A DNA stretch of 44,990 nt, counting the filler, from Jimgerdemannia flammicorona (taxonomy: Eukaryota), in the NCBI GenBank assembly GCA_003990765.1. It is 2 parts of 2 records of this genome, joined end to end, with 100 filler letters (N's around TTAATTAATTAA, not from the genome) between each part and the next. Parts side by side here need not be neighbours in the genome. Positions count along the whole stretch, not along the records: positions 22,547 to 44,990 come from RBNJ01001279.1; 1 more part is not named here. The stretch is one strand, 5' to 3'. Within the stretch, counting starts at the first letter, position 1; each line of letters begins with the position of its first letter. Shown one piece after another: positions 7,732 to 40,917 of the stretch. Both the position numbers and the translations under genes were made by a program. The notes beneath the pieces are model-generated. The model worked only from the letters and a program-made list of their open reading frames with translations, was not told where the DNA came from and did no database searches.

Positions 7732-7892
7732 TTGTGTTGGAATGGGGTTATCTGAGACAAAGAGAGAGAGGAGAGCAGAGGGGTGAAGAACAAGGGTTGG
7801 TGGCTGAGGTCAAGTCATCGTTTCGGGATTGCGTCACACCAACTCTTGCCATGATGTCCAATCCTGTTGTGTGACTCGTCTTGCGGTCCCAG

Positions 7893-15504: not shown

Positions 15505-15581
15505 TTCTCTGGTAATATTCAGGTTACACAATCTTTTGGTAACACTTTCAACATAGTTTCTGGAGAAAAGCTACTAGTATC

Positions 15582-17607: not shown

Positions 17608-17637
17608 GGATTGATTGAGAACAAACCATATTTCATT

Positions 17638-20600
17638 ATGAACAGTATAACCAATATTTTTTCATTGAACGTGAATAGGCTAAGGGGCACAGTTAGATGC
17701 AGGAACATTTTTATTTGGTTGAAGGGATTGGAGGCCGATCTCTTCCTCTTGTAGGATATCAGGTGCGAGGATGATTCTGATAGAATGGAATGGACTAAGG
17801 AATAGGGTGGCATAGCAATTTGGAACAGCAAGGTCAGGATTCTGGTTCGGAAAGACAGAGGGGAGATAAGGGATGTGAGGAGCTGGGGGGAGAGACTGGT
17901 CTGGGGTGAGTGGATTCATGCAGGTTGGGAGCCAGTCACAGTTGGCTCCTGTTACTACCCTGCTGTGTGGGGGGAGCATGTGGATTGGGTGAAAGGGCTC
18001 CTAGAGAGTGGGATCCTTGCTGAAGCTGAGTTGGATATGCTTGGAGGAGATTTCAATATGGTTTGGGATGTACGGCTGGATAGAACTGATGGAGGATGGG
18101 GTGCTGAGAGCAGGAGTGGGGGGCTGGCAATGTGGGAGGAGGTCAAAAGACTAGGAGCACTGGTAGATACTGGTAGGGAGTACTGGGGGGACAGGAGGAT
18201 ATATACGCATTGGGCTGGAGGTCTGGAGACAAGGATTGACTGGATTCTGACAGCCGACTGTTGGGGCCGCAATGTTTGGAAGGTGCTAGAGGTAGAATGG
18301 TGTCCGTAGTCAGATTACTGATGCCTTTTGGGACAGGGGTATTTTGGGGGAAGTGGTGATGGGCCTAGACATTGGCATCTAAATTCCTCCTTGTTGGATG
18401 ATGAGTTCCAGTGGGAGGAGTGGGTGAAAGACATTCAGCTGAAGGTGGTGAATTGGCAGCAGAAAGGGGCTGCAATTGGGGTTCAGTGGATGAGGATGAA
18501 AGAGATAGCCAGGATGTATTGAAGCGAGGCTGGCAGAGTGGCTGGGAAGCAGTGAAGGCGGAGAGTGCATTGGGCTTCTACTAGATTGACTAAGCTCCTG
18601 GAGGAGTGGGCGAGACTGGCAGTAGTGGAGGGAGAAGAGGATTGGAGAATAATGAGGGTGAAGATAGAGGTTGAGGAACTACAACAGGTGCTGTGAGAAG
18701 AGAAAGAGTCAAGGATGCAAGGCCTGGTGGCACGGCTTCATTGGCAGAGGCTGAAGGAAGGAGAGAGGTCTTCCAAGTTTCTCATGAGGATACTTTGAGC
18801 GAGAAGGATACAGCAGTGGTGGGAAGGGGTACTTGACTTAGATGGTATACTAGTGCATAGTGTACAGGATATCCTTGGAACACTGAAGGCACAATAGAGT
18901 GGATTGTGGAGTGAGAAGGAGGGTGGAGCAGATGCTATAGCCATTGACCAAACATTAGAAGATTGGTACCCACCACAAGCTGAGGGATTAGGTGACCTGG
19001 TGATGCCTGTAAAGGAGGACGAGATCCACCAGGTTCTTGCCACAACAGCCTTGGGTATAGTGCCTGGGGAGGATGGCCTCCCCTGAGACTTCTGGAAGCG
19101 AATGGTTGGAGTCCCAGACATGTTGGGGGAGTTGACAGCACTGTGTGACTCTATATTGCAGTCAGAGAGATGGGTGGGGGAGCAGGATCTTAGACTGGTG
19201 ATGCTGCTTTATAAGAACAAGAGAAGGTGAGAGGATTGGAAGAACTGGCAGCTGATAATGTTGCTAGATATAGACAGAAAGTTGGTGACTAAGGTGGTGG
19301 TTGCAAGGCTACAGAAGGTAGCCCAGCAAATTGTGGGTATTGAGCAGAGGAGCTTCATAGGGGGTTGGCTTATTAGAGATGACATGGCCTGGGTACATGG
19401 AGTTATTGAAGGTACTTGAGCCTGTGGACTGGATGGGCATCTTGTCTTCTTGGATCAGGAGAAGGCTTATGACCAGGTGCAGTGAGTCTGGCTGGCGAAA
19501 GTATTAGATAGAATTGGGGTTCCAGTCCCATTTCAGTTGACGATAGTCAGCCTACTGGAAAGGAGTAGGGCTGTGCTCGTGTGTAATGGGCATAGAGGGG
19601 TAGCATTCCCTCTAGGTAGGGGAGTGCCCCAGGGGGACCCACTGTTCCCCATTTTGTATGCTCTTTTCTTGGAACCTCTAATGGATAGAATTCGGCAGAG
19701 GATAGTGGGGCTCTCTATCTATGGAGTTGGCTGGAAAGTTGGAGCCTTTGCAGATAACATGGTGGTTGATTTGGGAGTGACTGCGGATGTTGAGGAGTTC
19801 AAGAAGACAGTAGAGTGGTATAAGGAGAACTCTGGGGCGAAGCTGAATTGGCACAAGTGCGAAACAATAGTACTGGGCAATGGCCTGGTGGACAGAGAAG
19901 TTATTGGAACAATTGTCCCCACCAGAGAGGCAGTGCGGTACTTGGACATCTATTTGTCAGTCTATGGGTCTGTTCTGCCCAGGCTGTGGTGAGAGCAGAG
20001 GATTGGAAATTGGGAGGAGGACCTGCAGGGTTGGGGGGGAAGACACTTCTCTCTAGCAGGAAGGATCTCAATTTTGAATATATACTGGCTACTGAAGCTA
20101 TGGTATTTGGCTTATCATCTGGACTTCCCAGTCTGGATGGTGAAGAGATTGGTGAAGGTGGCCAAGGGATGGATTTGGGCTAGCAGACAGAGTCAGATTG
20201 GTTGGGAGACTTTGTCTCTACTGGTGGCAAGAGGTGGTCTTAGGCTGGTGGACTTCCCCAAAAGACTACACTGCTTGAGGGCATGGTGGCTTAGGAGGGC
20301 AGTAGAGTTGTGTAGAGAGGACTGGGTTCCCCTGCTACAGAAGGTATGGGAGAGGCAGATATTATCAAGAGGCTTAACTGGTGATCTTCTTTCATTAGTT
20401 GGGCTTCAGAACACTGCGCAACTGAGATATAAAGGCTTCTGGTGGGGGATAGCCAAGGGGACACACCACATTGGTATTCACTGGTGAGGGGATGAGGGGG
20501 AAAGAGCTTGGGGCCCAGTAATGTAGAGATGGGATGATATTCTTCTGGGAGGTATACCTTTACTTGAGTTCAACATTGGTGATAGAATCAAATGCCAAAG

Positions 20601-21293
20601 GGGACCAGGCCAGGATCTGTGGCCTAGTGATTAGCAAGGAGTTGGAATTGGTGAGGAGTGGGACTGGCATGGAGTTTGGACCTGGAGTACCGCAGTGAAA
20701 AATTGGATGCTGCTGAAGTACTGGGTGGTCTGGTGGTACATACTGAGGAGAAATGTGATGCTTAACTTCTGCTCAGAACACCTTGTTGTAGGGGGCTGCT
20801 TTGACTGTGAGGAGTGCCATAATGTAAAGCAGGAAGGATATTTATACAGATACCAGAACATTGGCTAGGGGAGTGTGAGATATTGGGAGACTTTTGGTGG
20901 GCCATTAGGGACTACTTGGGGGTAAGGCGTAGGGGTGATGATATACGGGGGAGGTGGGAGGACCTGAGGGATCGATTGATAGGAGGGGTAGGGAAGGAGT
21001 AAATTACTCTAGGCTGGGTATTGGCTATTTGGGTTGGGCTGGCCAGTTACTGGCTATTTGTATTTGAGGAGGAGAGGTAATAGAGCTTGGGGAGTCAGTT
21101 ATTATGGTGGCAGTGTCTTATGGAGAATACCTTGACAGGCTGGTGGCTTGGTTGGGGGCTGCAGGGGGGTCAGAGGCACCACTTAGTAGTGAAAATCTGT
21201 GGTCAGAGTAGTGGAAGAGTTGGAGTTATTGGTGAGAGAGTGGTCTTTATATGTGAAGAGGTGGGGAGGGGCCCCCCAATGGGGATTGGATAG
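17638..21293 (+). pseudogene. LINE ORF2: APE endonuclease + reverse transcriptase (interrupted)
   Basis: IFSLNVNRLR, LGGDFNMV, TRIDWIL (APE); LDQEKAYD, GVPQGDPL, AFADNM, RYLDI (RT); C-terminal Cys motif CFDCEEC. Confidence 0.9.
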
Positions 21294-21352
21294 TGGGTGG
21301 TGATATTGTATACTTATTCATAAACTGGTAATAAAGACAGAGTCCAAGGGAC

Positions 21353-21385
<33 letters not shown>

Positions 21386-21961: not shown

Positions 21962-22446
21962 TGTAATAGAATGATGAACGATGAGCGATCACGTGACCCG
22001 GCGAGCGATGACGTCACCATACGATCGAAGCACGACATATGAATAGCGAGTACGAACAATGCGAAACGACGCGGAAAACGATATCCAGCTTACCCCCAAC
22101 AATCGGCGCCACAGTCAGTGCCGCAGCAACAGTTGCCACAGTTGCTGATCATTGCCTAGTAATTGAGGTCCTGATCACAAAGTTGTTTTTGCCAAAAACC
22201 ACCTGACAAAGGTCGCGATCACAAACCTTATTATAGTTACCAAATTAGTCACTCATACTTAGTCAGAAATCGCGGACCAACTTGTATAAATACCCCCCAG
22301 TTTTCCATCCGAAATAAACCAGTTTTAGTTCAGTCCTTGATACAAGAATCAAGTCCCCCCCACACACACACATTCCCCTGAGTCTTAGTAATGACATCTA
22401 AGTGACTCTAGTGTTTCTGACTAAACTCCAGAAGCCTAGCTAACTT
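21962..22446 (+). mobile_element. Gypsy family 2 LTR, 5' 485 bp (cut by contig end); CpG-retaining copy
   Basis: Begins TGTAATAG; colinear with 33219-33690; TATA (tgtataaatacc) and AATAAA present. Confidence 0.9.
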
Positions 22447-22730: not shown

Positions 22731-25252
22731 ATATAAAGGTCTATCAAGAGTGAGCAAATGCCAAAGTATAAGTTCTGAAATGAGACTTATTCCAATTTAG
22801 AGAGTTATTAGAATATGTTAAAGATATCTTAATATAAAGACTATATGAGTTATATCAAGATATATATATGAATATATATATATATACTATAATTCTAATA
22901 AGTCAAATATATATATCAAAGTAATAACTTTCTCTAATAATAAGAAATAGAAGTAAGCTATGAATAAAGAGTATAATTTACTTATCAAGAATAGTATATA
23001 ATATCTAATACTCCTTCTGACTAATTGATAAGATATAGGATTATATTGAGTCTATTAAATTAAGTACAAAAATGATGAAACTATAGATTGATATAAAGCT
23101 TATTTTATTACTAAGAGTTATTTACAAGATTATAGTATTGACTATGATAAGATATTTTTACTGATTTTTAAGCTTACTTTGTTAAAAATACTTCTTATAA
23201 TTAGTATTATATATAATCTAGAAATCTATCAGATAGATATAAAGATAGCTTTTCTTAATAGTAATATAGATATAGAGCAATATTTTCCAGCTATAATAGT
23301 ATAAGCAGAATGATGATCTTATATATAAATTATATAAAGAATTATATAGTATCAAGTAAACAGTCTGTTTATAGAATAGAAAAAATAATTAATATCTCTT
23401 TAATAATAGCTTTATATATTATAAAGTAGATAACTATATACATATATATATATTCAATACTATACTAATAGAGTAGTATATAAAGATATATAAGTAATAA
23501 TATCATTATTATTTTAATAAAAAACAAACTTAATAGAGTTAAAGAAACTTTGTATAAGAAATTCAAGATAACTAATAAAGGTAATATGTCTTTTCTTTTA
23601 GAGATATTCATTATATATAATAGGAGTATATATAATATATATCTATTGCAGTTAACTTATATCTATACTATTTTTAAATAATTCAATATAAGTAAATATA
23701 AGCTAGTAAATATTTTTATAAAACTTTAATAAAGTTAAGAAAGTCTGATACTCTATTAGAGAAAAACTACAATAATATTTCTTATTGATAAGCAGTCAGT
23801 TTCCTCATATATCTCATACTAGAAATAAGGCTAGATATTTTATATATTATAAATAAAGTTATATAATACTCATTATACTATGATAATTTATATTAGAGTA
23901 CTGTTAAGAGAATTTTCAGATATATTAAAGAAATAATATACTATATACTCACTCTTGGAAGATTGAGTGAGAGTAATAGCTATAATAATAATAATAAGGA
24001 TAGTATTCAACTATTCAGCATATGTGATACTGATTGAGTTAAAGACTTAGATAATTGTCAATCTATAATTGATTACTTCTTTTAGTTAAATAATAAAGGA
24101 GTTATTTTATAACAAATATATAAGTAAAATTTAGTAGTAATACTATCATATAAGTAAAGTACTAAGTATTGTTTATAGTAATAAAAGTAGCTATTTAACT
24201 ATGCCAGCTATTAAAAAAAACTCAGAGTTAATCAAAAATGACCCTCTATACTCATCTATCAGAATAACCAGTCTATATTTACTATGGTAAAGAACTCTAT
24301 TTATTATTGGGTAGGGTTGGCAGATTACTGGTTGTTTGTTTTTGAGAAAGAGAGGAGCATAGAGTTAGGGGTGAGACTTTTGCAATAGTAGGGGCTAATG
24401 GAGGACATTGTAATGGGCTGGTGGCTTGGTTGGAGCTTACAGAGTAGCCAGCAATATTGCTTGGTAGAGAAAATCTGTAGGCAGAGTGGGGGGAGAGTTG
24501 AGGTAGTGGGTGGAAAAGTAGTCTTCAAATGTAAAAAGATGGGGGGGGGCTCCTCTATGGAGATTGGGTAGTGGGAGGTGACACTGTAACTAAATCTATA
24601 AACTGGTAATAAATGGTGAAGTCTGAGTAAATATAAAAAAAAAAAAAAACTCTATTTATTGTAGTAAAACTAAATACATTAATATATAATATTATTATAT
24701 AAAAGAATATATAAAGAATAAAACTATATGCTTAGAATATATCTTTATAGAGTATATAATTATAGATTTACTTACTAAAGTTCTTCTCAGACTAAAATTC
24801 AAATAATATACCAAAGAAATAAGTTTTATAGTAATAATGAATAATTATAGAATATTTATATAATTATAAAAGAAGTAGAAAAACAATATAATATATCTTT
24901 CTACATTTCTTTCTTCAAGTATTATATTATAGTTATTCACTTGTTCTTCTTTATTTTCTTTTATATTTAAAATTTTCTACTATTGAGATCTATTTATATC
25001 CTTTATTTTTACTATAATTTCTTAGTTACATTATATTCTTACTATTATCTCATTGAGCAAGAGTGTTGAAATTTCTATTATTTTGATATCTTAATAATAT
25101 AACTTATATATAACTCTTTTTATATCACTAAATGTATAAATATTTACTATCTGGAATAATAAATAATACTACTTCTCTCTTCTCTTTATACTATATTCTA
25201 ACTAAGATACAATATTATTAGTATTAATTATACTATTATTAAATCTTGAACA
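22731..25252 (+). mobile_element. Heavily eroded Ty1/copia pol (RT + RNase H) with 3' LTR 25064-25252
   Basis: AMNKEYNLLIKN, YKAYFITKSYLQDYSIDY, EIYQIDIKIAFLN, ICDTD*VKD, KN..|..SKTKYINI*YYYIKE; PPT ttgagcaagag then TGTTGAA...TTGAACA. Confidence 0.88.
24306..24647 (+). mobile_element. 5'-truncated LINE (3' ~340 bp), related to 15505-21385
   Basis: Homologous to about 21025-21385, with AATAAA and poly(A); perfect 13-bp TSD aactctatttatt at 24293-24305 and 24648-24660. Confidence 0.9.
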
Positions 25253-25756: not shown

Positions 25757-27217
25757 TGGTTAGTAGCTAGAACTTCTTTAGTTTATATATTATACTGATG
25801 AATACAGGTATGAGCTAGAGTACTAAGATGGACATCTCTACAATAGCTCACCAGTAATAGAAAATATAATAACAAAGTTCTTTCTGGTGGTAGAAAGTAA
25901 TTATAATAAAGGTATCTACCTAGATATTCAAAACAATTATACATCCTCACCAACCGCAGGTAAAGTTCTTCTTGATATTGAGGTAATCATGAAGTTCTCA
26001 CAGATAATAGACAAAATTCTCCCTAGTATTGAGGTAATTATGAAACTCTCCCATATGGTCAAGGTAATTATGATAATAAGGAACCAGCTGATGAGGCCAA
26101 CAAAGCTAGTATCTAGATACTACTTTTATTCTTTTTCAATAGATTGAAGCAAAATATCATGCAACAAGCAAAATAACGTTGATTAGCTCCCTTCACCATT
26201 TCAAAACAGATTATATTACTGGTAAAATTGCAAGGAATAAACAACCTTCCTGAATATGATCATAAGGCCACCCACTTACCTAATATATTTAACTGAATCT
26301 CTCTCTTCACTATGAATGACAATTTAAGCTTGTTCTGTTGGATGTGTGGAGAAAAAACAAATTATTATCAGTACAGTCCCAATTCAGCAATAAAACATTG
26401 TATCTTACATCTGTTCACTATTCACATATAAAGAATTATCATATATAGGATTTGCATTGAAATAAGAAATAAGTAGAAATAAGACATGACTATGATACCT
26501 TGAGCTCTTTAACTGTTTCTAACAGTCTTGTTGTCCTCCTTAGTGATGCTTTTATTTGCATGCTAAAAATCAACCAATTATAACAGATCTATATCATATA
26601 AATGAAACTCAATCTTGTCTCTCACATTGGCCACCAACCTACAAATCCAACCTCAACAATGACCCCTTCCCCCCCCCCTCTTCTCACTTATACTCACTCA
26701 CCCCACATTTCCTTATACTTGAATGACCCTCTCTCTTCAACTCATATCTTTTCTTAGTCTGATGGCTTGCTATGCTGCTCAATTAGGAAATAGAAGGTAG
26801 AGAGCTCAGCATGTAGAGACATGAACTCCTCAGGGTTCATCAAGACTGAGGACTCATTAACTGTAAACTCTATATTAGACAGATATTTCACAATAGCATT
26901 TGAATCTTTTACTTATCATTCTACATTATACCCTATCAAATACAGATAGGAGATAGATATTATAACAGTGATCTCAGAATAATAATATCAGTATAGGAGA
27001 CAGCCTTTCCTTATAAGCCACCAGATCAGAGTATAGAAAGATTATATAGTATATGTAACTCATCTAGGCTATAAGATGAGTAATAATGACTAACTATGAG
27101 TTATTGTGACCACAAGACAGATATCTTGAGGAATATAAAAGAAGAATCAAGAAACTACAATAGCAGCAATCTAAACAAAGCTCACAGAAATAGTTCTAAA
27201 GACTTACTATAAACAAA

Positions 27218-28031
27218 ATACCTACTGCTTACCAAACCTCAAGATCCAGAAATTACTAAGGCCTCTCAGTCTAGGAAAGGATATTCCAAGACATCAGAAG
27301 AGTTATGAGGACCCACACAAGAAGGACTCCTAGTATCAATCTGAGTACTAGTGACCTCTAGTATTATATCCTTTACTGCCATGAAATGGAAATCAGGATC
27401 ACTATCACTACTGAATATCTTTGGATATAGTAGGAGTATGAAATAGGAAACCTTCTATGCTGGGAATAATCTCAGGCCAGTCACCAGAAAATACAAGATA
27501 CCACCCCTATAGATATATGAGAAATAAGGATAACTAAGAAGATTCATCAGGTCTTCAGACATACATTATAATTAATCTCCAACTTGGAGTATACTAGGAT
27601 CTCAGACTTCAAGGAACTGTCAGCCTGCCATACCAATGCAATAGAGGCCATAGTAGTCACAGAAGCTCAGTCTACTATTACCCTCAATAGTGATAAGGTA
27701 AGAGAGTTCTGGAATCTCATTCTTGAGGAGAATCCTGATCAATTTCTGCAACAATTGATCTCAGCATTCCAAGGCCCCAGTATCTGAGTTAGACCTCCCC
27801 AAGATCCCACATTTGTTCCTTATTTTGTAGAAGAGAATGTCATAGATTGGAGAGCCCTAGACTGCCACCAAACATGATGACATCATCACTGATGATATCA
27901 TCCTGCATGACATATATGAAGCATACAAAATGTGTAATATATATGATGAGATGAATGAAATATTTGTGGATCTCATCTTCTTCAGCAGTGATGAGGATGA
28001 AGCTCCTATAGCCCTGAACATTCTGCTTTAA
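27218..28031 (+). pseudogene. Gypsy family 1 accessory 'ORF3' of unknown function (~270 codons, eroded)
   Basis: One frame from a decayed start (ata) at 27218 to about 27862, one frameshift, stop at 28031; TATAAAA at 27134; aligns end to end with 40658-40917 joined to the minus strand of 30088-29537. Confidence 0.75.
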
Positions 28032-28533
28032 GTTCTTGATAACACCAGATTCTACCAGTATCCTTTTCCTGTATAACTGTTATTCTTCTGGCATTCTGAT
28101 CTTGTGTAACTCAGAATTCTTCTGGTATCCTTTTCTGTATCACCAAAATTCTACTAGCATCCTAAACTTATGCAACTATTTGTACAGACACTTGAACTTA
28201 TACTTACAACTGTAGTTTTCTGTGTTCTAGTATTTTATTTAGTTTTTGGAATTTATATTTAGCTTTATAACTTACTACTATTGAATTATATTTTGTATAA
28301 ATACCTCTTTTATTTAATTTGAAATAAAGTCAATCAAGTTCACTTACTCTCAATTCTATACAAGCAATCTAAGAGATAGCAAGACAGTTTAAAGATAAGA
28401 AATTTGAGGACTATAAGGCCTTAAGAAGGTACTCTAATAAGAACTTGCTTATAAAAAACTTGTAGTTAGTCTAAGAGATATACCTTGGAGAGAATCTGAT
28501 ATATTTGAAGGACTCAGCGACTACAATATGACA
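27838..28533 (+). mobile_element. Gypsy family 1 LTR (696 bp)
   Basis: Perfect 7-bp terminal inverted repeat TGTCATA...TATGACA; purine tract agaagagaa immediately 5'; tgtataaatacc and AATAAA inside; PBS-like act-TGGTGCCC immediately 3'. Confidence 0.8.
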
Positions 28534-28536
28534 ACT

Positions 28537-28744
28537 TGGTGCCCATTGGCTAGTGTTTCAAGATGAATCCCTCACTTTTAAGCTAAAAAATGAACAACTA
28601 CCACAACAGCTACCCTGACTACAAGAGTTACCCCTGCAAAAATTCAAGATAAAATGAAAATGCATCCCCCTACATTCTATAGATATACTACTGAAGAGTC
28701 AATCCTGACCTTTATTGAAGACTTTGAATAATTCACTGCTATAT
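28537..28744 (+). mobile_element. Family 1 PBS and gag N-terminus
   Basis: KMHPPTFYRYTTEESILTFIEDFE*FTAI; joins in frame, through the TSD, to the gag that reads leftwards from 33218. Confidence 0.75.
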
Positions 28745-29508
28745 TGTAATAACTCTCACTTCTTCTCCTCTCTTATCCTTTGGATAATTAGAGAAGTAAG
28801 ACTATTACTTAGGGACTTAGTACACAATGTGTACCAAGAAGCCTTCAGTTTGAGGAAGTGCTCACTTAAAAGTAGTTGTAGTAACAGTGTCTCATCTTTC
28901 AAAGGTCTTTTTCTTTTGTCCTATCTTTCAAGAGTCTTGTTCCTTACTGTACACAGACCGAATTTGCCTTGGAATTCAGGTTCAATGGATTTACTTAAGT
29001 CTTTGGGGATTTATATACCAGTCTCAGTTCTGGCAGAAGTTAGCTTGGCTTCTGGAGTTTAGTCAGAAACACTAGAGTCACTTAGATGTTATTATTAAGA
29101 CTCAGGGAAATGTGTATGTGTGGAGGGAACTGATTCTTGTATCAAGGACTAAACTAAAACTACTTTATTTTGGATGGAAACTGGGGGGTATTTATACAAG
29201 TTGGTCTACGAATTCTGACTAAGTATGAGTGACTAATTTGGTAACTATAATGAGCAACCTTTCTTAGGTGGTTTTTGGCAAAAACAACTTTATAATCAGG
29301 ACCTCAATTACTAGACAACGATTAGCTGCTATGGTAATAGTTTCTGTGGTGCCAATTGTCAGGAATAAACTAGATATCATTTTTTTGTATTGTTTTCTAC
29401 ATCATTTATTCATTTGTCATTCTTATGTCATGCTTGATCATATGATGATCTCATTGCTGGGTCATGTGATTACTCATCACATCTTGTCTGTTCATTCATT
29501 CTATTACA
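28745..29508 (-). mobile_element. Gypsy family 2 3' LTR (764 bp)
   Basis: TGTAATA...TATTACA termini; inverted near-copy of 33219-33982 with the same length; PPT aaggagagaag precedes it on the minus strand. Confidence 0.93.
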
Positions 29509-29536: not shown

Positions 29537-30088
29537 CATTGATTCAGAAATTGAGAACCAGGGGAGAGAAAGGTAGAGAGTCTTCCTTAGTATTGTTGCC
29601 CTTTTCTTCAGTAGCAGGGGGGTGGTTGCTGATGGCTCGCTGTCCAGGATGGAGAAGTCAATGAGATCTACAAATAGTTCTTACATTGGGATGGGTGCTG
29701 GTATAGGGGTTCTCCATCTGATGCAGTTGGGACCATCCAAGTAGGGTTCTTGATTCTCATGCCTGGGGATATCTATTTGGATAGGTAGTCCTTTGAAGAG
29801 GTCAGAGAGATCTTGGCGCCATTGGTCTGAGTTGTCATTCAGGAGAGAGCTCTAGTGGGGTTCACAGTCAGTAGACTTGAGAGTAATCCAGAAGTTGGCT
29901 TCTTGGGCAATCTTAATCTCTAGCTCATCAACCTCAGAGAAAGAGAGATTCTGGGAATCCTTCAGTTGTATATAGTTGAGGTTGGGGATTACAAAGAGTA
30001 TATAGTGCATAATTTGATGGACCTTCTTGGCAAGTCTTTGCTCATGTCTGTCCAGGTGGATCCAGTCTGAGACCTGGTCAATGGGACT
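29537..30088 (-). pseudogene. Family 2 ORF3, C-terminal part
   Basis: SPIDQVSDWIHLDRHEQRLAKKVHQ...NLNY...EANFWITLKS...NSDQWRQDL...PY...NCIRWR...ELFVDLIDFS; homologous to 27490-28000. Confidence 0.75.
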
Positions 30089-33000
30089 GAAGATGATCAT
30101 ATCATTGATATAGACAAAGAGCCATTCTCCAATCTCATTACTGAAGACTCTGTTCATTATTTACTGAAAACATACTAGGGTATTGCACATTCCTAATGGT
30201 ATTTACAGATAGACATAGGTAGAATCAGATATAATAAAGGCTGATTTCTCACTGGCCTCTTGAGTGAGACCAATCTGATGGAAGCCTGAGAACAGATCCA
30301 AGGTGGTATAGTATTTGGCTACACTTTTAAGGGTGGTAAGGATTTCTTGAATATTTGGCAAGAGCTGTATATCCTTCTTAGTAATTGTATTGAGCTTTCT
30401 GTAATCAATACAGAGTCTTGGAGCAAACTCTCCAGGCTTACTTTCTTTCTTTAGAGCTAGGACAATGAGTGAAGCCCAGGGGCTGAAATCTTACTTGATG
30501 ATTCCAGCTTCTTCCATTTCCTTGAGTTCTGCTTGCAGCTATTCTCTGTAGGCAGGTGGTATAGGTCTGACTTTCTGGTAGATAGGCTTGGTATCACTAG
30601 TGTCAACTTCATGATAGTACTTGGGTTTTTGATTATAGATATCCCTGAAGACTGTGGTAAGTACTCCTTCATTCTGGTACAAGATCTTGAGAAGTTGATC
30701 TTCTAGGGAAAAGTTTTCTCTAATAATATATATATGCTTATTCTGGTCCTTATCTTTCTTATACTCAAGTTCAGTAATCTTGGTGGCAGCATAGGCTCCT
30801 CTTCCAGTAGATCTAAAGTCTTGTTCTTCTCTCTTAGTCTTGATGAGTTTGATGGCTTCAGTGATCTTAGGCTTCTTGACTTCATGGATCAGCATTTGGT
30901 CAATTCTGTCATGCATCTTGACTTTGAATAGGGTGGTGTGGTTGTAATTCCTGATTATGAGAAAGATCTCACCAGTATAATCAGGGTCTATTACTCCTCC
31001 TTCAACTGAGATTTCACTTTTGGCCAGACTGCTCCTGGTCTTGATAATTCTGGCATAGTTCTCTGGTAACTTGACTCCAATTCCAGTACCAAGTAGAGTA
31101 GTGATCTGGGGTTCGAGGATAGTATCTTGAAAACTAACAAGATTCATTCCTATGGCTCCTTCAGTCTTGTATTCTGAGATCTTGGCTTTGGGGTAAAACT
31201 TCTTGACCTTGAGATTGATGTCTGATTCTTGTTCCTCCTCATCATCACTGTTAGCTTGAAGCTCTGGGGGCTGGTCATCTTCTTCAGCTTTTCTTTTTGC
31301 TTCAGCAGCTTCTTACTCATATTTTTATTAGTGGATTTTCCTGACTTTACTAATATAGGACCAGTAGTCATTCAGGTGTTTGGAGCAGTACATCCTAGTA
31401 CTATGGAGATATCTTCCTTGAGGAATATAGCCATTGATGATCTTGTTGTACTACTGCTCATCTGTGAGCTTAGGTGTCTTGCTCTTGTTCTTGTACACCA
31501 AGTGTATGAAGACTTCTGTGTCTTCTTCATCTCCTTTCTCTATGTCTGGTAGCACTCATTTGTGGACATTAATAGAGACTCATACATTTCTTCCTCTATA
31601 GTTGATCTATATCTCTTGGGCATTGAGGTCAATAATAGCTTTTGCCTCATAAAGTCATTAGTTGCCAATAAGAATATCATAGTTGGTGGCACTTATAACA
31701 ATCACATCTACTGGGATAGTAGCTCCTCCAATCTTAATGGAGACTTCTCAGATCTTGCCTAGGGGGGTAGCTTATGTATCATCTACTGTGATATAGACTA
31801 TTTTGGTAGACTCTTCAATACCCCAGTCTAGATGGTCAATTATCTTCTTGCTTATGAGATATCCTCCAGCACTGGTATCAATGATGGTATTAAAGATATA
31901 ATCTTCAATCTGATATAGAGTAGAGACTGATGTCTTGTGTTAGTCTTCAGATTCTTCACCTAAGTCTTCAGATTATCCTTGTACATTGTGAGCTTCTACA
32001 ATCTTGTACTCTTGATTCTTGGCAGTAGTTACAAGTTCTACTCTCAACTACTGTCTGAAGGCTGGGACTTTGGCTAGTTGTCCAAAAGAAGCATTGACCT
32101 TCTGTTCCTTGAGGTCCTTGTAGATATCATACTGGTGGATCTTGGTCTTGTTTAGCTTCTGTTCTTTCTTGCTTTTACTTTCACCTGAGACTGGAGTAGT
32201 GCCTTCAATAATTTGGTGTGCAGCTTCATCTAACTCTATATCTTGATCAATTTCATCAGGTTGGGTCTTGCTTTAGATAGTGATAGCTGGGGTCTTCTTT
32301 AGTCTTCCAACTGGCTTGCTGTTGTTCTTCTTATTATAAGGCTTGGACCAGGTTCTATTACCTTTAGTAACAGAGTAGAATTTAGACTTCTCTTAGTATT
32401 CTTCATCATCAGTATCACCAATCTTCTCAATGACTACTGCATTAGTTTGTTCTCTAGTTCTGGTAGCATTGCTTGGGTGGGCTTTGTATCTTGTTTTGGT
32501 CATGCAACTCTTTATATAGTGGCCTTCTTCTAAATATCTAAAGCATATGATATTGTGTTCTTCTATAGCATCTGCAAATCTCTGTACTGGTCTCCTATTG
32601 GCACTTGAGTTCTCTAACAATATCACTAAGATATATAGTTATCTCAGTAAACTGCTTGGCAAGTTCCTCCACTGGGTCAGCTTTGGCTATCTTGGGGGTA
32701 GGTGGAGATAGTTGTCTGTTTACAACTATGGCAGGTATGATACTGATTGGCTTTGATAGCTCTATCTTAATGCCAGTTATTTTCTCCATTGAGTATTCAG
32801 CAGGATGTCTGGCAGTCCAAATCTCTGTACAAAGACCACTTTCTGATCGAGGTTCAGAGCAGCTAGAGTAGATAAGATTGCTATGGCAATTTCAGGGTGA
32901 ACTCCTTTCAGGAAGGTTGAATCTGCTATTTGGTCCTTGAGGGCATCATTATAGCCAGCCAAGATAATCTGATAGTAGATTCAAGTATAGAATGAGTTGG

Positions 33001-33218
33001 GATCTTCACTAAGTCTCTGGCAGATAGTGTTGAGTTGATCCTTCAGAGCTTGTTTGATCTCTTTGATATAGTATGTAGTTCTGAGGAAGGTCTCCATATT
33101 GCCAAGTTTGGCTGCACTAGCATCAGCAATAGTGGCTGCATTGAACTTGTCTCTGGCAGATCCTCTGAGACTGACTGATAGAAGGGCCAATTGTACATCT
33201 ATACTAAGAGCTCATATG
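30084..33218 (-). mobile_element. Gypsy family 1 (copy B): gag (Zn knuckle) - protease - domain X - dUTPase - RT truncated just after the YxDD box
   Basis: LLSVSLRGSARDKF; CFRYLEEGHYIKSC; IIDTSAGG; GGVIDPDYTGEI; LCIDYRKLN, TTLDLFSGFHQI, MPLGMCN, VYINDMIIFS. Confidence 0.92.
30785..31215 (-). pseudogene. dut: Trimeric dUTPase domain in family 1 pol (between PR and RT)
   Basis: All five motifs recognisable: AIGMNL, RSSLA, GGVIDPDYTGEI, DRIDQ, REEQDFRSTG. Confidence 0.9.
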
Positions 33219-33982
33219 TATAATAGAATGAATGAACAGATAAGATATGACAAGCAATCACATGATCTGGCAATGATGTTATCATATGATGAAGTGTGAC
33301 ATAAGAATGACAAATGAACAAATGATATAAAAAATGATGTGAAAAAATGATATCCAGTTTATTTCTGACAATCAGTACCACAGCAACTATTATCACAGCA
33401 GCTGATCATTGCCTAATAATTGAGGTCCTGATCACAAAGTTGTTTTTGCCAAAAACCACCTGATAAAGGTCTCATTATAGTTACCAAATTAGTCACTCAT
33501 ACTTAGTTAGAAATCATAGACCAACTTGTATAAATACTCCCTAGTTTCCATCCAAAATAAAGCTGTTTAGTTTGGTCCTTAATACAAGAATCAAGTCTCC
33601 TCTACACACACACACATTCTCCTGAGTCTTAGTAATGACATCTAAGTGACTCTAGTGTTTCTGACTAAACTCCAGAAGCCTAGATAACTTCTGCCAGAAC
33701 TGAGACTGGTATATAAATCCCCAAAGACTTAAGTAAACCCATTGAACCTAAATTCCAAGGTGAATTCATTCTGTGCACAGCAAGGAACAAGACCCTTGAA
33801 AGATAGGACAAAAGAAAAAGACCTTTGAAAGATAAGACACTACCACTATAACTACTTTTAAGTGAGTGCTTCCTCAAACTGAAGGCTTCTTAGTACACAT
33901 TGTATACTAAGTCTCTAAGTAATAGTCTAACTTCTCTAATTATCCAAAGGATAAGAGAGGGGTAGAAGTGAGAGTTATTATA
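33219..33982 (+). mobile_element. Gypsy family 2 5' LTR (764 bp) followed by PBS
   Basis: Eroded termini tataata...tattata; followed by act-TGGTTGTAGTGG. Confidence 0.92.
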
Positions 33983-35924
33983 ACTTGGTTGTAGTGGATT
34001 ACTAGCCAAGAAGGTACTAAGAACACACTTCTAAGAAGTTGGAACAAGACCAACCTTGGTCAGAAGTAAACTTCAGAACCAACTGTGGATCTCCAAACCA
34101 GAGCTAGAGAAGTCCTTCCTATTAGGACCAGGTGGTACCAGGAACCCACAGACCCAGGGACCTACTAGCTTGTAAATGACTAGGCTTACAAGGATCTATA
34201 ACCAGGCCTTTAGGGCTTACCACCCAGGGCTTAGGAATATAGTCAGCCATCATAGGTTCTATGAACTTCTCTGTAAACATATTGGAACCACTAGGACTCC
34301 AGAATCTACTACTGCAGCCACCCAGAATTTTCTAGATTATATCACCACCTACTGCAAGAGAAGCAGCTGCCAAGTGGATTACCTCTGATAGATATCATCA
34401 TACCCCTACCAAGACCTCCCTCTACTACAGACTAGTTGTATACTATGCCTCTGCCATAACCAGGTACAAGAACAAGCAAGCAGGGCATCCATCCACTACT
34501 GCTGAACAAGGAGCAGATCCATCTACCTAGCCAGAAACTAATATCCTCTTTAAAGGACCTAGTCAGTATGAGAACACACTCTCTCATCAGAGAAGGTAGT
34601 CAGATGAAGACCCTACTAGTTATCAGTCTAACGGTAGTTAACTAGGAACAGCAGGTCTAGGAATTTATCAAGGAATCACAGATCAAGAAGATCAGACCCC
34701 AGAACCAATCCAGCCACCTATACAGAGGTTTGGTTTACCCTTTCTCATGGGACTCTTTGATCTTATATCTGGGAATCAAGTAACCCCAAGTCATATAGCA
34801 CTACAACTCCATCAGAAAAAACAATCTTCAGGAGAATCTACCCCCACAGAACCACAATCAATAGTCAATATAATAATAGATGCCAATATTGCAGTACTGA
34901 CTACCCAGCTAGCCACACTAGCATGGATAGTAGGGCAGATTGCTGAACAGAAATAGCCAACCAAGATCTTGCAGATCCCAACATTCAGTGGAAAAAACAG
35001 TGACATCAAAAACTTCATTAATGTAGTTGACACAGATTACCAAGTAAACCAATGAAATGACAAATGAGTGCCTATAGGAATGCTTATGAACAATCAGAAC
35101 AATTCTCTTCAACAGCTATTTGTCACATCAGTAGCACAAGTAGAAACAGTAGCTACATTCTTCACTGGAACAATAGCTGAATTCTGGCGCACCCTAGAAT
35201 AATACCCAATAACCTGGGAAAACTGCCCTCAAGTCAATGAACAAGCACCTGCCAACAATAGACCAGGTTGGGATGACTATAAAGTAGGCCCAGGACTCAA
35301 GGCACTGCTACTGACCAAATTCCAAAATATGGCCTACATACAAGAAACTTGAAACAAACTGTCCCAGATGAAGTTCCACAAGAATGGTAAGGAGGATCTA
35401 GAGACCTTTGCCACCAGAATGAATGCCTACCTCAAAACCATTGGACTTACCTATCAGGAGAACAATTTGGCCATCAATAGTACTAGAGCCAACCATCTCT
35501 TTGGAGCCCTACCAGACGGACTCATCCAGAAAATCAAGGAACAAGGTCTTCTCTAAGGATGTCCCCACTATTCATAGTACTTTGCCCAAGTACAAAGAAG
35601 AGCCGGCAAAATCCTTGCTACATAGGCCCTATGAAATCAAGAACACAAAAAAGATAACCAAGATAGGAGAAATCCCACTAGGAGAAATGATCAAAGAAGT
35701 GACCAAAGGAATGATCAAAGGAACCAGTGAAACTCCAGAGGACCATGACCTCTTACTGAGGATGAAAAGAAGCAGCTCCATGAAAAGGGATTGTGCTTCA
35801 TCTGTAAGAAGGTAAGATATATCTCATTCAAATGCCCTGAGAAGAGAAACAGATCAGGTGAACCCAGTAACCAGAACATTACTATTATTGGAGAAGGTCC
35901 AGGAAAGAAAAACTCCAAGAATGT

Positions 35925-36338
35925 CATCAAAGTATAGAAAATATAGTACAAGGCTATCATCCCCACTAAGGCTCACTCCACTGATGCTAGATATAACCTC
36001 TACAGTAGCCAAGACCTCACTATTCCACTAAGTACCAATGCTACAGTGTGAACAGAAATTGCAATACAAGCTCCCAAAGGTATATATATCCATCTAGCTA
36101 AGCAAAGCAGTCTAGCCAAAGAGTTCAACATTGGGCTAGGAGGAGGAGTAGTTGGCCAAGGATTTACTGATGAAATCCATGTCATCTTGTGAAATTTTGG
36201 AGACACATCATTTGAAGTTAAAACAGGCCAAAGGATTGCCCAAGCAATTATTGAAGAAATCTATCAAGATCTCACTATTGAAGAAGTTCCCGAGCTCTCC
36301 CAGACAGACTATGGCAAGAAAGTGTTTGCATCAACCAA
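35925..36338 (+). pseudogene. dut: Trimeric dUTPase domain in family 2 (between Gag Zn knuckle and protease)
   Basis: PTKAHSTDARYNL, QSSLA, GGGVVGQGFTDEIHVIL, GQRIAQ, TDYGKKVFAST. Confidence 0.85.
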
Positions 36339-39300
36339 CAAACCTCCCAATCAAAAGGTCACAACTATGAAGGAAGATGATGAAAACTGGTACAAGAGAA
36401 TTGCAGATGGTTATGCACTATGTGGATAATGCCCTCATACTATCTGAATGTACTACATGGAATATATTAGTGAATGCCATGCATGCCTCTCCAAAGTTTT
36501 CAAAATTCAATCTAAGAAGTACCAAGCCCAACAGACTGAGGAACCCAAACAAGACTACCCTCCTTGTGAAAGATGGGAAGAAACTGACTTTGAGGAGACT
36601 GACAGCAATTGGGATAACAATGAAGATAAAGAGCTCAACATCATCAAGAAGAAGGACAGTTGCAATAAGTTCACAGGCCAAGTCTACAAACAGAATGTCA
36701 ATGTCTTGCTTGATAGCAGTACTACTGGAAACTATATCAGCACTAAGACTGCCAAGAGGATTGGAGCCCAAAGCAGATCAGCTACTGAGAAAAGAAGTGT
36801 TACCTTTAGTGATGGTAAGACTGCACCACTGACCAAGATCTGTGAAGATCTCTAGCTCAAGATTGGCAAATATCAAGAGAAGTTAAACTTCAGTATTATA
36901 GACCTCCCAGGATAAGACATTATCCTAGGAAAATGCCTGGTTGACCCAGTATAACCCAGATATCATCTGGAGAACCAATGAGGTTAATCTGACCCATGAA
37001 GGCAGAAAGATCACCCTGATACCCCAGGAAGGTACCAATTATCAATCCAAATGAAGAGACTCTCTTGAAAAAAAGAAAACACCTACTTCATCTGTACTGT
37101 ACAAGAAGTCACTAAAGCTACAAGTAGTCCAATTTCAACAGAAGCTCAAGAACTATTTGAAGAATTCTAAGATTTATTCCAGGACCCTCAAGGACTTCCA
37201 CCCAAGCACCAAATCGAACATAAAATTGATCTTATTCCAGAATCTGAACCCCCATACAAGAGTATCTATCAACTGGCCCAACCTGAACTCAAGACTCTCA
37301 AGGATGAGTTGACCAAACTACTGGTCCAAGGATATATTGAACCCAGCCACTCTCCATTTGGAGCCCCCATTCTATTTGTCAAGAAGAAGGATGGCCCTCT
37401 GCAAATGTATATTGACTACAGAGCCCTCAACAAGATCACCATTAAGAATTAGTATGCCTTGCCTAGGATTGATGAGTTGTTGCACCAAATCTTTAAGGCC
37501 AAGACCTTCTTCCTACTAGACTTGTGAAATAGCTATCACCAGATTCTTATTGATGAGAAGGACATTGAAAAGACAGCTTTCTGAACATGGTTTGGATACT
37601 ACCAGTTCTGAGTCATGCCTTTTGATTTGACCAATGCACCAGCAACAGTCCAATATTTGATGAATGATATCTTTAGACCACTCCTCAATATCTGTATCCT
37701 GGTATATATTGATGATATACTAATTTACAGTGAAACAGTAGAGTTACACTATACCTACCTCAGACAGATGCTGATTCTTCTGTGAGAATACTAGCTCTAT
37801 ACCAAGATGAGAAAGTATAAGTTCTATCAAGACCAGATCAAGTACCTAGAACATATCATCTCTGCTGAAGGTATCAATGTAGATCTCTGAAAGATATCAG
37901 CCCTCAAGGATATTCCTATCCCTACTACCCTCAAGCTACTTCAGTGCATTCTGGGTATTGTCAATTACTACCAAAAGTTTATCCAAGGATACTCTGCTAT
38001 TGTAGCCCCATTGATCAGTCTGGTTGACAAAGGAGTAAATATCAAAACTAAATAGACCCCCAAATATATCCAGGCTATGAACTATCTCAAGAGACTCCAT
38101 ACCAAGGTCTCAGTGCTAATTGCACCTAACCCTACTAGACCATTCACTCTGACTACAGACATCTCTGACATTACCATTAGGGCAGTATTCAGCTAAGAAG
38201 ATCACCCAGTGGCCTATCTTTCCCAAAAGCTCAAGCCAGCTGAGACTTAGTATACTACCCATAAGAAGAAACTTCTGGCCATTGTTACTGCACTCCAAGA
38301 ATAGTACTATTTCCTCCTAGAACAACCTACACTGACTACTATACTCTGTAGTACATTCATATACAGCCCATACTGACCCACAGACAAGCCCACTGGATGG
38401 AAATCATTGCTAATTTTGATATGAAAATCAAGTATATTCCAGGCAAAACCAACCATGTGGCTGATGGGTTCTCTAGGTATATGGAAGATGAACTTATCTT
38501 CATGGTCAAGATAATTGGAGACCTTATCCAGATAATCAAGGGTAGCTATCAGCAAGATAGCCCCCTGATGAAATTTCTTCAATTCTGCCAAGACCCAGAG
38601 GCCAAGGTCCCAGAACTCATGAGGCAAATGTTCAAGAGATTCACTTACTATGATGGACTTATCTACAGAGACTATGACAGAGTGGTTATATTCAATAATA
38701 ATACTCTGCAACTCAAGATCATGCAGGAACTCTAAAATACTCCTACAGTAGGATACTTTGGTTTTGAGAAGACCTACAATCTCCTCTCAAGAGAGTTCTA
38801 CTGGGCAAGAATGACCAAAGATATCAAAGACTTTGTGGCCTCATGTGAAATGTGCCAAAGATTCAAAAGTGATAACAAGTTACCAGCAGGACTTCTACAA
38901 CCTCTGCCTATCCTAAGCCACAACTGGGATCAGATTGCAATAGACTTTATTGTTCAGCTCCCCAAGACCAAGGCAGGATGGGATACCATTGTGGTATTCA
39001 TGGACCACCTAAGCAAACAAGTCCATTTTGCACCCACTAAGACCACTGCTACTGTACCAGAAATTGCCAAGATTTTCCTCAACCAAGTATTCAGGCTATA
39101 TAGTATGCCTAGTACCATTGTATCTGACCAAGATGCCAAGTTCACAAGTAACTTCTGAAAGGCATTCTTTTCTCTCTATAGTACTAAGCTGAAGTTCTCT
39201 ACTGCCTATCACCCTCAGACTGATGGTCAAACTGAGTGAACCAACAGAACCCTCAAGCAGATGCTTAGCATCTTCTACTATTACAGGCAGAATGATTGGG

Positions 39301-40657
39301 ACAAGTACCTAGCCCATGCTAAGTTTGCCTATAATAATAGCCAGCAAATCTCTATGAAGAAGACTCCATTCTTTCTGAACCATAGTCAACACCCAAGGAC
39401 CCTGAGTACTACTGCAAAATCAGTATTCCCAGCAGCCCAAGATCTAGCCGAGACCATTTTTGACCTTATCTGAATAACAAGAGATGCTCTCATAGAAGTA
39501 CAGAACTATTAGACAAAGTATGCAAACTTGAAGCAAAGAGAAGTCTCCTATAAATTGGTGACATAGTCATGCTCAGAACAGATTACCTCTACCCAGACAC
39601 TCTAGCACAACAATCTGCCAAGAAACTCCATATTAGAAGAATTGGACCATACAAGATTGTGGAAAAGGTCAGCAAAGTCAACTACAAGTTGTAACTTCCC
39701 TATAATATCTGAGTACACTCAGTATTCCATATCAGCCAATTAGTGGACTACTATGAGAACCCATTCCCTGAGTATACAGTTCCACCTCCATCCCCAATTA
39801 GGATCAATGATTATGAGGAATTCGAAATTGAGGAAGTACTTGACCACAAGATCTGCAAATACCCCAAAACAGTCAAGTGGTTTTTCCTCATCAAGTGGAA
39901 GGGTAACCCCACCCATGATGCTACTTGGAAAAAGGAAAAAACTCTAGAGAATGCATGCAAAGCCCTCCAGGACTACATGGAAACAATCACTCCCCAGCAA
40001 AGAAAGGAACTATAGCTCTAAAGAATTAGAGCACCTATTAAACAAGATACTACTATTTTATCCGAAATATATAATACTAAGTATTGCAGAAAAAGGAACA
40101 CTATATAATTAATAAGAAGACACTCAGGTGAAGGACAATCTAGCATAGTACAGCAAAATACATTTAAACAACTCCATTTCATGCCATTTGTATCATCTCT
40201 GCTGGATGATGATGAATGCTTCATATGGTACTTAGGAAAGCTGACAATGTTGAAACCAATCTAAGCCTATCCACATGACAGATATTGTTATTAGAAATTG
40301 TCTCAGATTACAATAAATGCTATTTCTGAGAGATTCAAACCTCTAGCCATAACAATAGGAGCTCTCACCCTAGACAAGAGTGGCTAGTCCTTACAAATAT
40401 ACTAATCAGACAAAAAAAAAAGGAACCAAGACCTGTTAACTCTGTGTAACCCTGACTACAAGTGACAATATCTTTGAAATCAGGATTTTCTCATGTGATC
40501 AGCACATACCCCACTTATAGCAATAGATTATACATTTTGCTAGAAAGCATAATCAAAAGAAGGTCACACCAGATAGGTGAATAAGTATAAATACCCAAGG
40601 CATAAACACCTCACAACCCTCATCTCCATCTCCTCACAAAGAAAAGACAAGACAAGA

Positions 40658-40917
40658 ATGCCTGCTACCTGCTGCCAAACTGCCCACCATAGTCAGCCCC
40701 TCTTAAGCCAGATTGACTGCCTTTTTGAACACATCCAGGTTGCTATCCAAAGAAGGAACCACGCCCTTAATCTCTCCAGCCTGGACCTAGGACAGTATGT
40801 TCTTGACCACTGTAAACTCATTAAAAGGGCCTACCTTGCCACCAGCCATCTAGAGATCTGAAATAAATATGAAATCAGCCACCAGCTTCTGTAACATATA
40901 AATGGCCTAGGGAGTCC
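40658..40917 (+). pseudogene. Family 2 ORF3, N-terminal part
   Basis: ATG at 40658, TATAAA at 40586; MPAT..QT...LSQIDCLFEHI...RRNHALNLSSLDLGQYVLDHC...ATSHLEI*NKYEI, homologous to 27218-27450. Confidence 0.75.

What the first reader, a model, noticed from the sequence alone, without database searches (positions are those of the whole stretch)
27218..28031. A third gene (ORF3) with its own TATA box in the env position, shared by both gypsy families
Seen: 27218-28031(+) aligns along its length with 40658-40917(+) joined to 30088-29537(-). Matches include RR..(I/L)NLS..DL..Y.L, T..L.I...YEI, E.R..KK.HQ, I.NL.Y, EA...ITL.S, N.DQ..Q.L...F.G, PY....N.I.WR and M.E.FVDLI.FS. Each start has a TATA box 70-85 nt upstream (27134, 40586). 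It has a basic N-terminus and acidic tail, with no obvious signal peptide or transmembrane segment. Known: extra 3' ORFs occur in some LTR elements (env, nef, plant antisense ORFs). Inference: a separately transcribed soluble accessory protein, such as a transactivator or anti-silencing factor, kept by two diverged lineages.
Basis: partly seen in the sequence, partly recalled or inferred. Interest (0 to 1): 0.75.

Follow-up and report, generated by a model that had tools for sequence, protein, structure and literature searches.

The report
Accessory gene in Gypsy retrotransposon LTRs
Two unrelated Gypsy-type jumping genes in this window carry decayed copies of the same unnamed extra gene with its own promoter, in one case inside the terminal repeat itself, and it probably encodes a small DNA-binding regulator of the element, though that function is not proven.

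Summary
The homology is real. Uninterrupted natural copies elsewhere in the genome align at 36% over 275 aa (E 9e-56). The split copy's join holds in 29 of 29 other loci. Shared variants favour third codon positions (p 3e-5 and 0.02). TATA boxes lie 80-90 nt upstream in 55/55 and 60/63 copies. The position claim is half wrong. Family B has the gene between pol and the 3' LTR; the given copy lies inside a 1.58-kb 5' LTR (U3), upstream of gag, and solo LTRs carry it too. Two more lineages in the genome and short metagenome proteins have relatives. No Pfam, PHROG, NCBIfam or PDB sequence hit; no transmembrane segment. Two predicted models give a helical core whose top matches are ParB/SopB helix-turn-helix domains (Z 4-5, not significant), plus an acidic disordered tail in three lineages. 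Best reading: a separately promoted accessory regulator, probably DNA-binding, swapped between lineages (0.45). Expression and function were not shown. The scan noted similar genes in other windows of this genome. New variant of a known kind.

The parts
26953..28534 (+). 5' LTR of a family-A Ty3/gypsy element (1582 bp); holds the whole ORF3 cassette in U3
   Evidence: Same block occurs at both ends of elements about 7.2 kb apart in other contigs, and is followed here by leader and gag
27134..27141 (+). TATA box of ORF3-A (first TATA of the LTR)
   Evidence: TATAWAW at about -90 in 55 of 55 family-A copies, against 22 of 780 control windows
27218..28031 (+). ORF3-A, decayed copy (ATA at the start position, nine early stops, frameshift in the tail)
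   Evidence: 67% over 215 aa to stop-free P0003, E 2e-92
28296..28328 (+). Main LTR TATA (28296-28303) and AATAAA (28323-28328) downstream of ORF3-A
   Evidence: same order and ~29-nt spacing in three young A LTRs and in B, C and D LTRs
28535..28744 (+). Family-A primer-site and leader region; ends at the target site (28740-28744) of the family-B insertion
   Evidence: Continues directly into window 33217 in uninterrupted copies; 5-bp duplication matches 4 of 5
28745..29508 (-). 3' LTR of the family-B element
   Evidence: 89% to 33221-33983 over 766 nt
29547..30087 (-). ORF3-B, C-terminal two thirds (decayed), ending just before the polypurine tract
   Evidence: 73-76% to P0004; order fixed by 29 of 29 other loci
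30087..33218 (-). Family-A gag, protease, Cys/His motif, dUTPase and RT start, cut at the inversion break
   Evidence: (dUTPase PF00692, E 3.5e-21)
33219..33983 (+). 5' LTR of the family-B element
34945..40015 (+). Family-B gag, zinc knuckle, dUTPase, Cys/His motif, PR, RT, RH, IN, chromodomain (decayed)
   Evidence: Translations; domain labels recognised from motifs (own knowledge), mapped
40152..40400 (+). About 250-nt stretch between pol and the ORF3 promoter, shared with lineage C at 74-78% DNA identity; may hold a small ORF
40586..40593 (+). TATA box of ORF3-B
   Evidence: present at about -80 in 60 of 63 family-B copies
40658..40909 (+). ORF3-B, N-terminal third (ATG kept, two stops), cut by the inversion
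   Evidence: 73% over 89 aa to P0004

Best explanation
ORF3 is a mobile accessory-gene cassette (TATA box, short leader, ORF of about 270 aa) of Ty3/gypsy retrotransposons in this host. SHOWN: it is protein-coding and was under purifying selection on active lineages; it has no transmembrane segment; it sits in U3 of the LTR in lineages A and C, between chromodomain and polypurine tract in B, and directly behind integrase as a core-only 145-aa form in D. INFERRED: it is transcribed from its own TATA as a short RNA ending at the LTR AATAAA, so solo LTRs can express it. INFERRED, weaker: the helical core (about residues 47-150) is a ParB/SopB-like helix-turn-helix unit that binds the element's own U3 repeats, and the acidic disordered tail recruits host transcription or chromatin factors. 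That would make it a trans-activator of the main LTR promoter, working like foamy-virus Tas from its internal promoter, in a host that methylates its transposons. The cassette has moved between lineages by recombination.
For: Homology. Selection: single-copy non-CpG transitions fall evenly on codon positions (A 28/26/34, B 26/25/35), shared ones on third positions (A 8/6/41, B 51/20/92); Fisher p 3e-5 and 0.023. pN/pS is lowest in the true frame of six (0.46 and 0.59). A-B codon-position identity is 51/61/38%. Promoter; a metagenome contig carries a B-like protein behind an A-like TATA and leader. LTR location; two solo LTRs with 4-bp duplications, one holding stop-free P0003. Fold: both models share a long helix followed by short helices. 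The top or near-top rows of 48,161 chains are ParB-family DNA-binding domains both times: VirB Z 4.0, rmsd 3.9, 75 aligned; SopB Z 5.0, rmsd 5.1, 83 aligned; also P1 ParB, Spo0J and KorB. The first Foldseek viral row for model D is a DUF3102 protein (E 0.5), a family I had noted as a guess beforehand. A basic R/K..A.[KR] helix recurs in all lineages. U3 holds lineage-specific repeats: an 18-nt near-palindrome 1-6 times in 30 of 30 young A loci and in 0 of 30 B loci; GACAnTGTC 2-5 times in 8 of 10 D loci. Transposon DNA is CpG-depleted, host genes are not. Exchange: IN identity is A-D 66% and A-B 29%, but ORF3 core identity is A-D 18% and A-B 38%; the IN tree rejects an A+B clade (p-AU 0.0045).
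Against: Every fold match is below significance: Z at most 5.0 where the tool says helical models reach 8-13 by common arrangement, rmsd 4-7, no Foldseek E under 0.001, and non-DNA-binding proteins tie with the ParB rows (Raf1, a PSI subunit). The two models share alignment rows, so they are not independent. The DUF3102 profile finds nothing in the genome or among the proteins. The core is net acidic (K+R 8-14 vs D+E 15-16 in lineages A-D). Lineage D lacks the acidic tail; lineage C lacks a canonical TATA (0 of 21); B has no clear repeat array. Tandem U3 repeats are common in LTRs without own factors (own knowledge). The ORF3 tree does not reject an A+D clade (p-AU 0.216), so exchange rests on distances. 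A fish retrovirus 3' ORF once proposed as a transactivator proved dispensable (PMC12193657, abstract).
Confidence: 0.45

Rival explanations
1. The gene is a real, separately promoted accessory gene, but the protein acts after transcription: RNA export or chaperoning, suppression of RNA silencing, particle assembly or copy-number control, using the helical core as a protein- or RNA-binding module.
For: Net acidic core and sub-significant fold matches. The tail is dispensable in lineage D. Precedents: CERV of C. elegans Cer1 for RNA export (PMC10309623, search listing only); accessory TE proteins with many predicted host contacts (PMC13547354, passages).
Against: ParB-type and other HTH DNA-binding domains recur in the top rows for both models. 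Lineage-specific palindromic U3 arrays sit beside the gene.
Confidence: 0.3
2. The protein binds the element's DNA but counters silencing or represses: it shields U3 from CpG methylation (VANC-like logic, recalled) or acts as a negative feedback factor made by thousands of LTRs.
For: Near-total CpG loss in old copies against 17-31 CpG per ORF in young A copies shows strong host pressure. The A repeat unit often contains a CpG. The same weak HTH signal applies.
Against: No catalytic or chromatin-reader domain was found. Nothing here separates this from plain activation.
Confidence: 0.2
3. It is an env remnant or passively captured DNA, kept open by chance or by cis-acting sequence constraint.
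For: Position behind pol in B and D. The window copies are all broken.
Against: No transmembrane or signal-like segment. Third-position bias of shared variants with an internal neutral control. Protein-level conservation without DNA-level match. Stop-free frames in 16 of 32 A and 5 of 52 B copies examined.
Confidence: 0.05

Closest known systems
Sense additional ORFs (aORF-3S) of LTR retrotransposons, and Grande gene23 (PMC7264820; parts 1-2 of 3 read)
   Same: Extra family-wide ORF at the 3' side of pol; gene23 has its own promoter and a nuclear product; function unknown.
   Different: The reviewed sense aORFs are env-like with transmembrane segments and the own-promoter cases are antisense. 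Here the ORF is sense, soluble, and inside U3 in two lineages.
ORF3 modules of bdelloid rotifer LTR retrotransposons (PMC5408684; abstract and outline)
   Same: dUTPase-bearing elements with non-env ORF3s shared between unrelated lineages.
   Different: Those ORF3s are env, GDSL esterase or DEDDy exonuclease; none of these families was hit here.
Foamy-virus Tas/Bel1 with internal promoter (PMC8003144; passages)
   Same: 3' accessory gene with its own internal promoter; Tas activates the LTR and the internal promoter. This is the working model.
   Different: No sequence or fold link was found; transactivation is untested here; the host element is a gypsy retrotransposon without env.
U3-encoded retroviral genes, MMTV sag and HIV nef (recalled, no call)
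   Same: Coding sequence inside U3, copied into both LTRs.
   Different: Those are membrane-linked immune modulators; this protein is soluble and unrelated.
ParB/SopB/VirB/KorB HTH DNA-binding domains and DUF3102
   Same: Predicted arrangement of helices over 75-87 residues.
   Different: Z 3-5 and no profile hit; no ParB CTPase domain; a lead, not membership.
dUTPase-bearing fungal Gypsy elements with 'add. ORF' of unknown function (PMC2864245; passages)
   Same: dUTPase at varied places in pol; a figure legend lists an additional ORF of unknown function.
   Different: That ORF's sequence was not seen (old .doc supplements not opened), so identity with this family is untested.

Membership tests
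Ty3/gypsy LTR retrotransposon (host elements A and B) | LTRs with target duplication and pol order PR-RT-RH-IN | tested here: met
Additional ORF (aORF/ORF3) of LTR retrotransposons | Extra ORF present in most copies of a family, beyond gag and pol | tested here: met
   29 of 29 B loci; both LTRs of A elements in 5 of the 9 contigs fetched, plus one
Additional ORF (aORF/ORF3) of LTR retrotransposons | Purifying selection on the ORF | tested here: met
Additional ORF (aORF/ORF3) of LTR retrotransposons | Located between pol and the 3' LTR | tested here: inconclusive
   True for B and D; in A and C it lies inside the LTR
env / env-like ORF | Signal peptide and transmembrane segment | tested here: not met
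   Best 19-residue hydropathy 0.17-0.97 in six proteins; no env family hit
ParB-type HTH DNA-binding domain | Significant structural match over the domain | tested here: inconclusive
   Top rows in two searches but Z 4.0-5.0, rmsd 3.9-7.1
ParB-type HTH DNA-binding domain | Sequence-specific DNA binding | not testable with these tools
   Needs a binding assay
DUF3102 (PF11300) | Profile score above the curated cut-off | tested here: not met
   No candidate in the genome; not reported for any protein scanned. Only a Foldseek row at E 0.5
Tas-like transactivator with internal promoter | Own promoter upstream of the ORF | tested here: inconclusive
   Conserved TATA in A, B and D, not canonical in C; no start site could be mapped
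Tas-like transactivator with internal promoter | Activates the LTR in trans | not testable with these tools
   Needs a reporter assay

The most novel reading that the evidence does not exclude
Gypsy retrotransposons of this host have evolved a complex-retrovirus-like control circuit: a ParB/DUF3102-type helix-turn-helix protein of prokaryote- or phage-like build, fused to an acidic activation tail, is made from its own promoter, binds lineage-specific palindromic repeats in U3, and switches on or de-silences the element. Moved into U3, the gene is copied with every LTR and survives in solo LTRs, so dead insertions keep supplying the activator in trans, and the cassette is traded between distant lineages.
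Probability: 0.3. Interest if true: 0.8.

Novelty: new variant of a known kind. Interest (0 to 1): 0.52.

Why it matters
Extra ORFs of LTR retrotransposons are known, but most have no function assigned. This one is an unnamed protein family in at least four lineages, with natural intact copies and candidate binding sites beside it, so the question 'do retrotransposons encode their own transcription regulator?' becomes directly testable. A whole gene inside U3 means solo LTRs are expression units, not inert scars. That changes how a genome full of such LTRs should be annotated and how silencing pressure might be countered.

Tried and rejected
Sequence libraries: no hit under E 0.1 in Pfam for the A, B, C and D proteins, PHROGs, NCBIfam or PDB sequences (one row at E 3.8); none in phage records, viral contigs or the first metagenome scan. 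An ankyrin protein (P0016, E 7.5e-5) was dropped as a repeat artefact. ESM Atlas hits (0.90-0.92 to unnamed clusters; DUF6546 for the core) share few features and were not pursued. Foldseek: nothing under E 0.001. Expression: no RNA holder on record was listed. Contigs of two runs guessed to be RNA cover the LTR and ORF but not gag, while a third run covers both; the runs were found with this stretch, so this is not counted as evidence. Homodimer prediction for the D core gave no answer (score 0.21, mark 0.32). Plain NG86 ratios (0.23, 0.27) overstated selection because of transition bias and were replaced. Topological conflict on the ORF3 tree was not shown. Paper searches listed no description of this family or of a U3-encoded gypsy ORF; one search found 0 papers with all five terms. 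The library lacks most subscription papers, so absence from print is not shown. (transposons of early-diverging fungi) was seen as a listing only. The host lineage was not determined by any search.

Full report
Setting. The window is eukaryotic DNA. Host genes include a BTB+SPRY gene at about 41150-42634 and a BCDHK-type kinase at 6103-7809. Transposon blocks have lost nearly all CpG (observed/expected 0-0.2) while host blocks have about 1.0. The genome, G000, has 231 Mb in 35,354 contigs.

Observation. Searches of the genome gave natural copies without stops. P0003 (family A, 273 aa) and P0004 (family B, 267 aa) align end to end at 36%, E 9e-56. First looks found 6,930 and 6,281 candidates, of which 141 and 144 were scored; these are not copy numbers, and the two sets may overlap. 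Among near-full-length copies in my loci, 16 of 32 A and 5 of 52 B had no stop. The window copies are broken.

Anatomy of family B. The element runs from a 5' LTR (33219-33983) through gag, zinc knuckle, dUTPase, protease, RT, RNase H, integrase and chromodomain to about 40015, then TATA (40586) and ORF3. The rest of ORF3 and the 3' LTR lie on the minus strand at 30087-28745. In 29 of 29 other loci the two halves are contiguous, so one inversion, real or of assembly, split this copy. The 5-bp target duplication matches 4 of 5.

Anatomy of family A. Undoing the inversion on paper puts 28744 next to 33218, as other copies show. So B was inserted into the leader of A, and the given ORF lies upstream of A's gag. 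The block 26953-28534 recurs about 7.2 kb apart at both ends of A elements in 5 of the 9 contigs fetched (one 3' copy truncated; a sixth contig has a partial second copy) and in one more. It is the LTR. In three young LTRs the order is: first TATA at about 155, ORF from about 243, tandem repeats, main TATA, and AATAAA about 29 nt later. The ORF is therefore in U3 (inference from the order of signals). Of 8 young LTRs with both ends resolved, among 30 loci, 5 are 5' LTRs, 1 is a 3' LTR and 2 are solo LTRs with 4-bp duplications; one solo LTR holds P0003.

Wider family. The profile search of 1.84 billion representatives gave 8 rows, 7 after dropping an ankyrin artefact; all are unnamed proteins on metagenome contigs under 5 kb where looked up. 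Two of them led to further lineages in this genome. Lineage C has a 328-aa form in a 2.35-kb LTR. Lineage D has a 145-aa core-only form directly behind integrase, before a 505-bp LTR. D is related by profile (E 1e-7, single comparison) and by shuffling (z 8-9 to A and C, 15 to P0017, but only 1.7 to B). P0012 has no copy above 56% here, so the family occurs in other organisms. One metagenome contig has a B-like protein, a B-like polypurine tract and LTR start, and a TATA and leader like A's.

Selection. With transition bias allowed for, pN/pS is 0.46 (A) and 0.59 (B) in the true frame, 0.69-0.70 in its antisense mirror and 1.1-2.0 in the other four. The copies were chosen by protein likeness, so an internal control was used. 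Variants seen in one copy fall evenly on codon positions; variants shared by three or more copies fall on third positions (A 8/6/41 vs 28/26/34, p 3e-5; B 51/20/92 vs 26/25/35, p 0.023).

Promoter. TATAWAW lies 50-110 nt before the start in 55 of 55 A, 60 of 63 B, 10 of 11 D (inside the integrase frame) and 0 of 21 C copies; C has a TATTTAA variant. Control: 22 of 780 windows. Copies of one family are not independent. No start site could be mapped.

Exchange between lineages. Integrase joins A with D (66-77% identity, support 98/98) and rejects A+B (p-AU 0.0045). ORF3 cores are 38% alike between A and B and 18% between A and D, although ORF3 changes faster than pol within a lineage (D vs D2: 63% against 84%). 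The ORF3 tree does not reject A+D (p-AU 0.216). Exchange is thus likely from distances but not proven by topology. Only one B integrase row was in the tree, on a long branch.

Protein. No transmembrane segment; the last 60 residues are acidic in A, B and C; the core is net acidic. The model of P0004 (12 rows, mean pLDDT 67) has a confident helical core, residues 47-149, and a disordered tail. The model of D (mean pLDDT 73) has the same helix pattern. Against 48,161 chains both put ParB-family DNA-binding domains at or near the top: VirB Z 4.0, rmsd 3.9, 75 aligned; SopB Z 5.0, rmsd 5.1, 83 aligned. These scores are within what common helical arrangements give, and Raf1 and a photosystem subunit tie with them. 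Foldseek's first viral row for D is a DUF3102 protein at E 0.5, the family I had guessed from memory, but the DUF3102 profile finds nothing. The HTH reading is a lead.

Candidate sites. Between ORF3 and the main TATA, A carries a 33-nt tandem unit with an 18-nt near-palindrome (30 of 30 young A loci, 0 of 30 B loci). D carries GACAnTGTC (8 of 10 D loci, none in 30 A loci, 15 sites in 30 B loci). C has other repeats and B no clear array. The window's own copy has decayed past recognition. Such repeats could equally be host-factor sites.

Mechanism. Most likely the cassette makes a short RNA from its own TATA, and the protein binds U3 and raises transcription from the main LTR promoter, as foamy-virus Tas does from its internal promoter (PMC8003144, passages): 0.45. 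Rivals: a post-transcriptional role 0.3; anti-silencing or repression on DNA 0.2; env remnant or passenger 0.05. A caution from print: the snakehead retrovirus 3' ORF, proposed as a transactivator, proved largely dispensable (PMC12193657, abstract).

Relation to what is known. Extra ORFs behind pol, some with own promoters and nuclear products, are reviewed for plants (PMC7264820, parts 1-2 of 3). ORF3s shared among unrelated dUTPase-bearing lineages are known in rotifers (PMC5408684, abstract and outline). Fungal Gypsy elements with dUTPase and an unnamed extra ORF are drawn in PMC2864245 (passages; its supplements were not opened and may hold related sequences). New here are the protein family and its place inside U3. 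My searches listed no paper on it. The scan itself noted similar genes in other windows of this genome (8 shown of 366 fitting notes); I read them after forming my reading, and they are not independent support. Verdict: new variant of a known kind, interest 0.52.

Noticed in passing
window 36388-36520(+) and 31411-31330(-): Both families carry a short Cys/His motif (WY.[RK]I.DGY...CPH..Y...H...C) next to dUTPase, in different domain orders (B: dUTPase-motif-PR; A and D: PR-motif-dUTPase). A possible unnamed zinc-binding module in pol.
   Followed up: partly
window 40152-40400(+); L175:3179-3426: A stretch after pol is 74-78% identical in DNA between lineages B and C, whose pol genes are only 33-43% alike in protein; it seems to hold a small ORF of 80-100 codons.
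   Followed up: partly
L080, L086, L105, about 900-1260: Family A has about 400 nt between the integrase stop and the polypurine tract, at the place where lineage D has its core-only ORF; it may hold another short decayed ORF.
   Followed up: no
L179:3086-9795: A mosaic element: B-like gag, zinc knuckle, dUTPase and protease followed by the shared stretch and a C-type LTR with ORF3, with no RT or IN match between; possibly non-autonomous.
   Followed up: no
window 21962-22446: A family-B LTR piece at a contig end keeps its CpGs, unlike the copies at 28745 and 33219; a young insertion.
   Followed up: no
window 785-2736 and 2786-4707: A tandem duplication of about 1.9 kb of host-like DNA (70-78% identical) holding a 410-aa minus-strand frame with no Pfam hit.
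   Followed up: no
window 15500-21370 and 24307-24649: A G-rich, CpG-poor block of about 6 kb ending in a poly(A/T) run near 21357, with a related end at 24307-24649; it looks like a decayed non-LTR element on the minus strand.
   Followed up: no
LTRs of lineages A-D (L081, L109, L155, L145): All four LTR types share TGTATAAATA followed 26-30 nt later by AATAAA, and C and D share about 25 nt upstream of it, despite unrelated U3 bodies.
   Followed up: partly
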